The notes: generated from the letters alone by a model not told the origin. A stretch of 5,219 bases of DNA from Candidatus Heimdallarchaeota archaeon (GCA_030602675.1 JAUVZH010000236.1:1-5219); one strand, 5' to 3'; positions 3,622 to 3,778 are shown, counted from the stretch's first letter. Numbers and translations: made by a program.

Positions 3622-3643
3622 CGCAGAAACTCATCGCCGGAAG
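3622..3643 (+). other. 5' flank of the processing stem (BHB-like motif, 5' strand)
   Basis: GAAACUCAUCG (3626-3636) pairs with CGGUGAGUUUC (3764-3774), giving 11 bp with one G.U. Three more pairs (3622-3624 with 3775-3777) lie beyond the bulged A3625. CCGG 3637-3640 forms the 4-bp central helix with 3757-3760, followed by the unpaired AAG at 3641-3643. Confidence 0.65.
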
Positions 3644-3762
3644 TTAAGCCTTCATACGTTATGTTAATTACTGATCTGAGCGATCGTTCGGGAACAACAT
3701 AAAGCTGCACAATGGTGCGGTCAAAGCTGGAGGGAAACACCCGGACTCGTCCGATCCCGGAA
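3643..3762 (+). rRNA. 5S rRNA, circularly permuted gene order (120 nt between the predicted junction points)
   Basis: All parts were read directly from the + strand.
- 3643-3650 GUUAAGCC.
- 3649-3658 is the helix II 3' strand.
- 3659-3665 with 3696-3702 forms helix V (7 bp).
- UACUG / GGGAA are the loop E signatures, with a GAUC/GAUC helix IV hairpin between them.
- 3704-3710 GCUGCAC pairs with 3715-3721 GUGCGGU as helix I, capped by AAUG.
- 3722-3725 CAAA is loop A.
- 3726-3734 GCUGGAGGG is the helix II 5' strand.
- 3738-3762 CACCCGGACUCGUCCGAUCCCGGAA is helix III plus loop C, close to the archaeal consensus CACCCGGaCUCAUuuCGAaCCCGGAAGUUAAGCC as I remember it.

G+C is 59/120 by hand count, against a much more AT-rich background. 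Confidence 0.8.
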
Positions 3763-3778
3763 ACGGTGAGTTTCGTGC
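3757..3778 (+). other. 3' flank of the processing stem (BHB-like motif, 3' strand)
   Basis: CCGG 3757-3760 forms the central helix. AAA 3761-3763 is a 3-nt bulge. 3764-3774 (extending to 3777) forms the outer helix with 3626-3636 (extending to 3622). On this side the outer helix, 3-nt bulge and 4-bp helix are canonical. Confidence 0.65.

What the first reader, a model, noticed from the sequence alone, without database searches (positions are those of the whole stretch)
3626..3774. Flanks form a bulge-helix-bulge-like motif predicting a 120-nt circular RNA
The flanks pair in the geometry recognised by the archaeal tRNA-splicing endonuclease.
- Outer helix: 3626-3636 with 3764-3774 (11 bp).
- 3-nt bulge: AAA at 3761-3763 on the 3' strand.
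- 4-bp central helix: CCGG 3637-3640 with CCGG 3757-3760.
- Unpaired AAG at 3641-3643 on the 5' strand.

The same enzyme releases pre-16S and pre-23S rRNA as circles. Cutting 2 nt into each bulge (after A3642 and after A3762) and ligating with RtcB gives a circle of 3643-3762. The boundaries carry a 6-nt direct repeat, CCGGAA (3637-3642 and 3757-3762). Any pair of equivalent cuts within the repeat therefore gives the identical 120-nt product.

One caveat: I cannot draw a helix inside the 5' bulge (U3644 faces C3756). That side is a relaxed bulge-helix-loop, which some endonuclease architectures accept and others do not.
Basis: partly seen in the sequence, partly recalled or inferred. Interest (0 to 1): 0.85.

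Follow-up and report, generated by a model that had tools for sequence, protein, structure and literature searches.

The report
Permuted 5S rRNA gene, probably circularised
The 120 bases between the paired flanks are a 5S ribosomal RNA gene with its two halves in swapped order, found in a group of Heimdall (Asgard) archaea; the flanks look built to let the tRNA-splicing enzymes cut it out and close it into a ring, which would explain why no 5S gene could be found in these genomes.

Summary
The helix 3626-3636/3764-3774 has 11 bp (one is G·U). CCGG 3637-3640 pairs with CCGG 3757-3760. The bulges are AAG and AAA, and the direct repeat is CCGGAA.

3643-3762 is a circularly permuted 5S rRNA gene:
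- Rfam sees two half matches below its threshold.
- A covariance model built from ordinary archaeal 5S genes that I permuted in silico hits exactly 3643-3762, full length, at 97.6 bits (E about 1e-18).
- The natural 5' and 3' ends are joined by a 4-nt cap on a 7-bp helix I.
- Joining A3762 to G3643 restores the universal CCCGGAAGUUAAGCC.

Twelve MAGs, nearly all labelled Heimdallarchaeota, carry the same arrangement. The flanking helix covaries strongly, and both bulges are invariant, including A3763, which lies outside the 5S.

The 5' cut site lacks an inner helix, so the motif is relaxed. Asgard archaea are reported to have the broad-specificity (αβ)2 endonuclease.

Cleavage, ligation and a circular mature form are inferred, not shown. 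The closest precedent is the permuted SRP RNA of Thermoproteus. I found no earlier report for archaeal 5S.

The parts
3580..3599 (+). Archaeal promoter-like element: purine-rich BRE-like stretch plus TATA-like box TTTAAAAA (3592-3599). It predicts a transcription start near 3621-3623.
   Evidence: AAAACGGYAAACTTTAAAA, or a close variant of it, lies at the same distance upstream of the outer helix in the 11 syntenic loci (least clear in L006). The start position is inferred from the usual spacing of about 26 nt; it was not measured.
3621..3642 (+). Leader of about 22 nt, the '5' exon', discarded after cleavage.
   Evidence: Start inferred from the promoter. End defined by the predicted cut after A3642. 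Comparable to the 23-nt leader of the permuted Thermoproteus SRP RNA (PMC4731332).
3626..3636 (+). 5' strand of the outer helix (11 bp).
   Evidence: Pairs with 3764-3774. Compensatory changes, for example the innermost pair (3636/3764) A-U in 7 and G-C in 6 sequences, and the outermost pair (3626/3774) G-C in 8, A-U in 4, G·U in 1.
3637..3640 (+). 5' strand of the 4-bp central helix (CCGG; CUGG in 4 homologues).
   Evidence: 100% paired with 3757-3760. It can equally pair with 3741-3744.
3641..3643 (+). 5' cut-site segment AAG; predicted cut after A3642. There is no inner helix behind it, so the site is relaxed.
   Evidence: Invariant in all 13 sequences.
3643..3762 (+). Circularly permuted 5S rRNA gene (120 nt), the predicted circle.
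   Evidence: model R1, built from in-silico permuted ordinary 5S genes, hits 3643-3762 at 97.6 bits, E=1.5e-18, model positions 1-121; two Rfam RF00001 half matches; the circular fold gives the canonical 5S three-way shape.
3643..3710 (+). 3' two-thirds of 5S: 3' strands of helices III (outer part) and II, the helix IV/V arm with loop E and loop D, and the 3' strand of helix I.
   Evidence: aligns to Rfam 5S from about model position 50 (AAGUUAAGC) to the 3' strand of helix I; helices II, V and I covary.
3711..3714 (+). 4-nt cap (AAUG) that joins the natural 3' and 5' ends of 5S on a 7-bp helix I (3704-3710 / 3715-3721).
   Evidence: The loop sequence varies among homologues (UGCG, UUCG, UGUG, CGCG, CUCG, AAUG; AAUUA in L012), while the stem keeps pairing with compensatory changes.
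3715..3762 (+). 5' third of 5S: 5' strand of helix I, loop A, 5' strand of helix II, helix III and loop C, ending in CCCGGAA.
   Evidence: aligns to about the first 50 positions of the Rfam 5S model (helix I 5' strand to loop C).
3757..3760 (+). 3' strand of the central helix in the precursor. The same four bases form the 3' strand of 5S helix III in the mature RNA.
3761..3763 (+). 3' bulge AAA; predicted cut after A3762.
   Evidence: A3763 lies outside the 5S yet is invariant in 13 of 13 sequences.
3764..3774 (+). 3' strand of the outer helix. Three more pairs can form (3775-3777 with 3622-3624) beyond a bulged A3625.
   Evidence: The 3-bp extension is less well kept.
3786..3790 (+). T5 run, a likely archaeal transcription terminator.
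   Evidence: T-rich runs follow the outer helix in most homologues. Inferred function.

Best explanation
Window 3643-3762 is the 5S rRNA gene of a Heimdallarchaeial archaeon, encoded in circularly permuted order. The 3' two-thirds of the molecule come first, a 4-nt loop closes helix I where the natural ends would be, and the 5' third comes last.

Proposed pathway (steps 1-4 are inferred):
1. The gene is transcribed on its own as an RNA of about 170 nt.
2. The leader of about 22 nt and the trailer pair into an 11-bp helix plus a 4-bp CCGG/CCGG helix. This presents two cut sites, CCGG-AA|G and CCGG-AA|A, in bulge-helix-bulge geometry. The 3' site is canonical and the 5' site is relaxed.
3. The tRNA-splicing endonuclease cuts after A3642 and after A3762.
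4. The RtcB ligase joins A3762 to G3643. This restores the universal CCCGGAAGUUAAGCC of helix III / loop C and gives a covalently closed 120-nt 5S rRNA. CCGG 3757-3760 then switches partner from the leader to 3741-3744 to form the native helix III.

Shown here: the permuted 5S identity, the conserved and covarying leader-trailer structure, its exact register with the 5S junction, and the stand-alone genomic context.
Inferred: which enzymes act, the ligation, and that the mature form stays circular.
For: Identity as 5S:
- Rfam gives two adjacent half matches to RF00001. 3713-3803 covers model positions 1-50 and 3599-3712 covers positions 50-120. Both are below threshold at 17.5 and 18.2 bits.
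- Model R1 was built only from 12 ordinary 5S genes (Rfam 86-105 bits) that I permuted in silico. It hits the window at exactly 3643-3762, full length, 97.6 bits. It hits all 12 genome loci at 94-110 bits. Normal-order genes give it only split hits of 31-62 bits.
- The 120-mer folded as a circle gives helices I-V of 5S.

Conservation:
- A pattern that requires the permuted order found 12 genome loci. Eight are titled Heimdallarchaeota and two Promethearchaeati.
- Eleven loci share flanking sequence with the window, so the locus is syntenic in them. The twelfth, L012, shares only the RNA.

Structure:
- 97.9% of cells are paired and 22 of 43 pairs show compensatory change. No shuffle in 500 reaches these values, and slid controls give 35-48%.
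- The outer helix of L012 is entirely different in sequence but identical in geometry.
- A3763, outside the 5S, is invariant.

Expression signals: a conserved BRE/TATA-like box and a T run.

Literature:
- Asgard endonuclease is (αβ)2 with the L1 loop, the broad-specificity type (PMC5829648).
- The same mechanism was shown experimentally for the permuted SRP RNA of Thermoproteus, which has a 23-nt leader (PMC4731332).
Against: - There are no RNA data. The metagenome scan for the contiguous junction returned only ordinary 5S genes of other organisms.
- The 5' cut site has no inner helix, so the motif is not canonical.
- MFE and RNAalifold prefer a conformer in which the leader CCGG pairs with 3741-3744, not the BHB. 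Because all three CCGG are identical, covariation cannot separate the two conformers.
- I could not scan any whole genome, so a second, ordinary 5S gene in these organisms is not excluded.
- The closed Heimdallarchaeum genomes of PMC8813620 were not among my 12 hits, so the link to that remark is indirect.
Confidence: 0.75

Rival explanations
1. Permuted but linear 5S. The RNA works without ligation, either as the untrimmed precursor or after trimming. The leader-trailer helix holds the ends together, and the leader CCGGAA stands in as the 3' strand of helix III. This would resemble the brown-algal mitochondrial 5S, which stays permuted in the final product.
For: The MFE and the RNAalifold consensus are exactly this conformer: leader CCGG pairs with 3741-3744 and runs on uninterrupted as CCGGAAGUUAAGCC. 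Permuted 5S rRNAs that are not religated exist in organelles (PMC4267664).
Against: Loop C would carry a 7-nt duplication plus an 11-bp arm in a region that is otherwise invariant. The symmetric CCGG-AA|N layout, the exact 3-nt bulge and the invariant A3763 have no role in this model. In archaea, RNA excised at a BHB motif is normally circularised (PMC4731332, PMC12918454).
Confidence: 0.12
2. Circular intermediate, linear product. The circle forms as above and is then opened in the helix I cap, giving a conventional linear 5S with natural ends. Permuted tRNA genes mature this way.
For: Precedents: permuted tRNAs mature through a circular intermediate (cited in PMC4267664), and circular pre-16S/23S rRNAs are classically re-linearised (PMC12918454).
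Against: The cap is only 4 nt on a 7-bp stem. Its sequence is not conserved (seven different loops in 13 sequences), so no recognition signal is evident. No enzyme is known for such a step. The Thermoproteus SRP RNA stays circular.
Confidence: 0.1
3. Not a working gene: a rearranged 5S relic, an assembly artefact, or a chance hairpin around unrelated sequence.
For: The bare geometry arises by chance about 0.16 times per shuffled window strand. Rfam does not call a 5S here at its threshold.
Against: Thirteen independent assemblies carry it. Every 5S helix and the flanking helix keep pairing through compensatory changes. The RNA body is far better conserved than the flanking genes (86% mean column identity in the alignment of the RNA region, against about 70-75% for the flanking DNA). 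A conserved promoter-like box is present. The permuted 5S model scores 97.6 bits.
Confidence: 0.02

Closest known systems
Permuted SRP RNA gene of Thermoproteus tenax / T. uzoniensis (Plagens et al. 2015, eLife, PMC4731332)
   Same: A universal structured RNA is encoded with its halves swapped, which is why standard searches miss the gene. A short leader (23 nt there, about 22 nt inferred here) pairs with the trailer into a BHB motif at the junction. A heterotetrameric, relaxed-specificity splicing endonuclease does the cutting. Ligation restores a conserved functional loop and yields a circular mature RNA.
   Different: The cargo here is 5S rRNA, a ribosomal component, not SRP RNA. The host is Heimdallarchaeia (Asgard), not Thermoproteales. 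Circularisation and cleavage were shown experimentally there and are only predicted here. Here the central helix is formed by a palindromic CCGG that is also a strand of the mature helix III, so processing requires a switch of pairing partner.
Circular pre-16S and pre-23S rRNAs of archaea, and circular or permuted mature 23S (PMC12918454, PMC7758197)
   Same: The same enzymes act (EndA at a BHB in a leader-trailer stem, then ligation of the excised rRNA into a circle). In some lineages the circle or a permuted form is the mature ribosomal RNA.
   Different: Those genes are collinear; permutation, where it occurs, arises after transcription. [quoted passage not shown] Here the gene itself is permuted, so circularisation is needed to rebuild the sequence.
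Permuted mitochondrial 5S rRNA of brown algae and other stramenopiles (Valach et al. 2014, PMC4267664)
   Same: It is a 5S rRNA in which helix I is closed by a hairpin and the ends lie elsewhere. It too was missed by standard models.
   Different: There the ends sit at the junction of domains alpha and gamma, and the RNA stays linear and permuted. No BHB and no religation are involved. Here the break is in helix III next to loop C and is flanked by a splicing motif.
Permuted tRNA genes (Cyanidioschyzon merolae; cited in PMC4267664)
   Same: The 3' half is encoded before the 5' half, a BHB-type motif lies at the junction, and there is a circular RNA stage.
   Different: tRNA circles are re-opened by RNase P and tRNase Z to give linear tRNA. 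No comparable signal is visible in the 4-nt 5S cap.

Membership tests
5S rRNA (Rfam RF00001) | Scores at or above the Rfam gathering threshold (38 bits) as a collinear sequence | tested here: not met
   No hit at gathering in the window or in any of the 12 homologous loci. There are only two half matches, 18.2 and 17.5 bits. This failure is what the permutation predicts.
5S rRNA (Rfam RF00001) | Full 5S sequence and structure content once gene order is allowed for | tested here: met
   A model of in-silico permuted bona fide 5S genes hits 3643-3762 at 97.6 bits, E=1.5e-18, full length. The reordered sequence is about 69% identical to ordinary archaeal 5S.
5S rRNA (Rfam RF00001) | Three-way junction (loop A) with helices I, II-III and IV-V, supported by covariation | tested here: met
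   Helices I, II and V are 100% paired with compensatory changes. The circular MFE reproduces the canonical shape.
5S rRNA (Rfam RF00001) | Free 5' and 3' ends at the tip of helix I | tested here: not met
   Helix I (7 bp) is closed by a 4-nt loop in the DNA in 12 of the 13 sequences and by a 5-nt loop in L012.
Bulge-helix-bulge (BHB) substrate of the archaeal splicing endonuclease | Central helix of exactly 4 bp | tested here: met
   3637-3640 / 3757-3760, 100% paired in 13 sequences, with C-G changed to U·G at one pair in 4 of them. A competing pairing with 3741-3744 is about equally stable.
Bulge-helix-bulge (BHB) substrate of the archaeal splicing endonuclease | 3-nt bulge on each strand, 3' of the central-helix strand, with the cut after the second bulge nucleotide | tested here: inconclusive
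   The 3' bulge AAA 3761-3763 is canonical and invariant. The 5' AAG 3641-3643 is in the right place but opens into a multibranch loop rather than a bulge. Cut positions are inferred from the rule, not measured.
Bulge-helix-bulge (BHB) substrate of the archaeal splicing endonuclease | Flanking helices on both sides (strict hBHBh') | tested here: not met
   The outer helix of 11 bp is present and covaries. No inner helix exists (U3644 faces C3756, both invariant). It is therefore a relaxed motif, not the strict one.
Bulge-helix-bulge (BHB) substrate of the archaeal splicing endonuclease | Cleaved by the cognate endonuclease | not testable with these tools
   Literature only: Asgard archaea carry (αβ)2 EndA with the L1 loop associated with relaxed-motif cleavage (PMC5829648).
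Permuted non-coding RNA genes matured by BHB excision and circularisation | 3' part encoded upstream of the 5' part, with the natural ends joined by a short linker | tested here: met
Permuted non-coding RNA genes matured by BHB excision and circularisation | Leader and trailer form the splicing motif exactly at the new ends, so that ligation restores the conserved sequence | tested here: met
   Cuts after A3642 and A3762 join CCCGGAA to GUUAAGCC. The same 23-nt junction sequence is contiguous in ordinary 5S genes.
Permuted non-coding RNA genes matured by BHB excision and circularisation | Junction-spanning RNA reads or a circular RNA detected | not testable with these tools
   No transcriptome data were reachable. 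The metagenome junction scan found only DNA of normal-order genes.

The most novel reading that the evidence does not exclude
In a clade of Heimdallarchaeia, among the closest archaeal relatives of eukaryotes, the only 5S rRNA gene is circularly permuted. The ribosome then carries a covalently closed circular 5S rRNA with no ends, made by the tRNA-splicing endonuclease and RtcB. This would be the first permuted rRNA gene in archaea, the first 5S rRNA shown to depend on the splicing machinery, and the answer to why 5S genes are 'missing' from Heimdall genomes.
Probability: 0.6. Interest if true: 0.9.

Novelty: new variant of a known kind. Interest (0 to 1): 0.85.

Why it matters
5S rRNA is universal, and the literature held here says it is the one archaeal rRNA that does not pass through BHB excision and circularisation. 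A 5S gene that can only be made whole by cutting and ligation would make ribosome production depend on the tRNA-splicing machinery in a new way. It would also add a covalently closed RNA to the large subunit.

In practice, it explains why standard tools report no 5S gene in Heimdall genomes. That affects MAG quality scores, which count 5S. It also gives a ready search model for such genes.

The prediction is directly testable with existing metatranscriptomes or enrichment cultures. Conservation of the arrangement in a distant lineage with a different genomic context (L012) shows the arrangement is old and stable, not a one-off accident.

Tried and rejected
- **Standard annotation.** Rfam at gathering threshold and ARAGORN found nothing in the window. 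Rfam at gathering threshold also found nothing in the 12 homologous loci. So standard annotation is blind to the gene.
- **Direct evidence for the junction.** A metagenome scan for the contiguous 23-mer CGTCCGATCCCGGAAGTTAAGCC returned 17 loci. All are ordinary normal-order 5S genes on GC-richer contigs, 14 of the 17 with tRNA genes in the stretch fetched.
- **Thermodynamic folding.** It was expected to show the BHB and did not. The MFE and RNAalifold choose the alternative CCGG partner. Constrained folding shows the two conformers are about equal in energy.
- **Statistical test of the bare geometry.** It is not significant on its own: 0.16 occurrences per shuffled window strand.
- **An inner helix or another register that would make the motif canonical.** None exists, and the bases concerned are fixed by the 5S.
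- **Source contig.** An exact-protein look-up returned only a 1.5-kb Logan contig.
- **Prior reports.** Seven full-text searches looked for a permuted or circular archaeal 5S. None was found. The library does not hold most subscription-journal papers.
- **Not possible here.** Scanning whole genomes for a second 5S gene, finding the endonuclease genes of these MAGs, and placing L012 taxonomically.

Full report
**1. The observation**

- 3626-3636 pairs with 3764-3774 over 11 bp (10 Watson-Crick plus U3634·G3766).
- CCGG 3637-3640 pairs with CCGG 3757-3760.
- AAA 3761-3763 is a 3-nt bulge.
- AAG 3641-3643 follows the central helix on the 5' strand.
- CCGGAA is a 6-nt direct repeat at both boundaries.
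- The caveat is also correct: no helix can be drawn behind the 5' AAG.

The strand order is the one used by archaeal splicing substrates. On each strand it runs outer helix, 4-bp helix, two bulge nucleotides, cut. I checked this against the canonical tRNA intron at 37/38, from established knowledge. There, nucleotides 32-35 form the central helix, 36-37 are the first two bulge nucleotides, and 38 is the third nucleotide of the other bulge, next to stem position 39.

**2. What lies between the flanks**

The segment is a GC-rich island (43-51% against 23-36% around it) in an intergenic gap.

Rfam at its thresholds finds nothing. With permissive settings it gives two adjacent half matches to 5S rRNA:
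- 3713-3803 aligns well to model positions 1-50 (5' strand of helix I, loop A, helix II, helix III, loop C, up to CCCGGAA).
- 3599-3712 aligns well to positions 50-120 (AAGUUAAGC through loop E and loop D to the 3' strand of helix I).

So the gene is a 5S rRNA with its parts in the order 3' part, cap, 5' part. The natural ends are joined by AAUG (3711-3714) on a 7-bp helix I. Joining A3762 to G3643 recreates CCCGGAAGUUAAGCC, which is contiguous in ordinary 5S genes.

**3. An independent, quantitative test**

- A metagenome scan for the contiguous junction 23-mer returned 17 ordinary 5S genes (Rfam 86-105 bits for the 16 not cut short by a locus end).
- I cut 12 distinct ones at CCCGGAA|GTTAAGCC, rejoined their natural ends, aligned them (A2), and built covariance model R1. 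No Heimdall sequence went into it.
- R1 hits the window at exactly 3643-3762, full length, 97.6 bits, E=1.5e-18.
- It hits every homologous locus at 94-110 bits.
- The normal-order genes score only 31-62 bits, in split pieces.
- Folded as a circle, the 120-mer gives the canonical 5S shape. Reordered, it is about 69% identical to ordinary archaeal 5S.

**4. Relatives**

A DNA pattern that requires the permuted order (GGAAGTTAAGCC ... ACACCCG ... CCGGAA) found 12 loci among one-genome-per-species contigs:
- eight titled Candidatus Heimdallarchaeota,
- two Promethearchaeati (Asgard),
- one 'Bathyarchaeia',
- one 'uncultured archaeon'.

The window is 93% identical over its whole length to L011 (Heimdallarchaeota 12F4_9). 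Most of the other loci, including the 'Bathyarchaeia' one, align to it at about 66-77% identity across the flanking genes as well; in L006 the RNA region itself reaches 83%. L012 shares only the RNA, in a different gene context. None of these loci holds a standard 5S, other rRNA or tRNA. The gene is therefore stand-alone.

**5. Is the flanking structure selected?**

On the 13-sequence alignment A1 I counted the precursor structure: outer and central helix plus 5S helices I, II, outer III and V.
- 97.9% of cells are paired.
- 22 of 43 pairs carry compensatory changes.
- 0 of 500 shuffles reach any measure, and slid controls give 35-48% paired.
- The outer helix, scored together with a 3-bp extension (14 pairs in all), carries compensatory changes at 11 of those pairs, for example A-U in 7 sequences against G-C in 6 at the pair next to the bulge.
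- L012 has a wholly different outer helix (GAUCCUG/CAGGAUC) with the same CUGG-AAG ... CCGG-AAA layout.
- The third nucleotide of the 3' bulge, A3763, is outside the 5S yet invariant in all 13.

The bare geometry is not rare by itself: 0.16 per shuffled window strand. The case rests on position and covariation.

**6. Two conformers**

CCGG occurs three times: in the leader at 3637-3640, as the helix III 5' strand at 3741-3744, and as the helix III 3' strand at 3757-3760. It is self-complementary.
- MFE folding and RNAalifold pair the leader copy with 3741-3744. This gives a native-like 5S with an extra arm in loop C.
- The BHB conformer (leader with 3757-3760) lies 0-1.8 kcal/mol above the unconstrained MFE in 12 of the 13 sequences. 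In L012 the constrained fold came out 1.8 kcal/mol lower.
- Covariation cannot separate the two.
- Only the BHB conformer places both cut sites symmetrically. It implies a partner switch after ligation, in which 3757-3760 moves from the leader to 3741-3744. This step is inference.

**7. Expression signals**

A BRE/TATA-like box (AAAACGGYAAACTTTAAAA, 3580-3599) is conserved at a fixed distance in the syntenic loci. It predicts a start near 3621-3623, so a leader of about 22 nt. A T5 run follows at 3786-3790. Both are inferred from sequence only.

**8. Literature**

- Permuted SRP RNA of Thermoproteus. It has a 23-nt leader, a leader-trailer BHB, cleavage by the heterotetrameric endonuclease shown in vitro, and a circular functional product (PMC4731332). 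This is the closest precedent.
- Asgard endonuclease. Asgard archaea, including a Heimdallarchaeote, are reported to have (αβ)2 EndA with the L1 loop linked to broad specificity (PMC5829648).
- Closed Heimdallarchaeum genomes. [quoted passage not shown]
- A 2026 study states that circularisation applies to 16S and 23S 'but not 5S rRNAs' (PMC12918454).
- The only permuted 5S I found is organellar, linear and broken at a different place (PMC4267664).
- Seven searches found no report of a permuted or circular archaeal 5S.

**9. Verdict**

- That 3643-3762 is a functional, circularly permuted 5S rRNA gene conserved in a Heimdallarchaeial clade is close to certain.
- That it is excised at the relaxed BHB and ligated into a circle is the best-supported mechanism (about 0.75).
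- Whether the circle is the mature form (favoured, because the cap is short and variable) or is re-opened cannot be decided here.
- Whether it is the only 5S gene of these genomes also cannot be decided here.
- It is a new variant of a known kind: BHB-dependent maturation of permuted RNA genes, now applied to a ribosomal RNA.

Noticed in passing
L010 (DATKZI010000026.1), whole locus: The record is titled 'Candidatus Bathyarchaeia archaeon', but it aligns to the window at 74% identity over 3.8 kb and also across the downstream ZnuA-like gene, and it has the same permuted 5S as the Heimdall loci. The bin is probably mislabelled or contaminated.
   Followed up: partly
window 3704-3721 versus L011 4653-4670: The window and L011 are 93% identical overall. 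In the helix I cap they differ at 7 of 19 positions: GCAC-AAUG-GUGC against GCGU-CUCG-ACGC. That is two fully compensated pairs plus a new loop, so the cap evolves unusually fast or was replaced.
   Followed up: no
window 3633-3642 versus 3754-3762: Beyond the CCGGAA repeat, the leader (AUCGCCGGAA) resembles the 3' end of the permuted gene (AUCCCGGAA). This could be a relic of a tandem 5S duplication that gave rise to the permuted gene.
   Followed up: no
window 3570-3740, minus strand: A 56-aa ORF lies over the promoter, the leader and most of the 5S gene. It is almost certainly spurious, but gene callers could annotate it as a hypothetical protein.
   Followed up: no
window 1564-3494: A sulfur-relay style cluster: DsrH-like, two DsrE/DsrF-like genes (minus strand), then a DsrE2-family gene and TusA (plus strand), ending 132 nt upstream of the outer helix (149 nt upstream of the 5S). 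The window also encodes PAC2, an Mrp/NUBPL-type ATPase, a small HMG-CoA_red_N-like protein and a ZnuA-like binding protein.
   Followed up: partly
L014-L030 (JGI metagenome contigs): Ordinary archaeal 5S genes on contigs of about 46-56% GC; 14 of the 17 also have tRNA genes in the stretch fetched. They share the exact 23-nt helix III / loop C sequence of the Heimdall 5S, including the less common GUCCGAUCCCGG. The organisms were not identified.
   Followed up: partly
L012 3521-3736 (CAZALJ010000016.1): A more distant permuted 5S (57% GC, 5-nt cap AAUUA) in a different gene context: thioredoxin-reductase-like, QueD-like and MptE-like ORFs, recognised by eye and not searched. Its leader-trailer stem seems to extend well beyond 7 bp. 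Its lineage is unknown, so the arrangement predates the syntenic Heimdall clade.
   Followed up: partly
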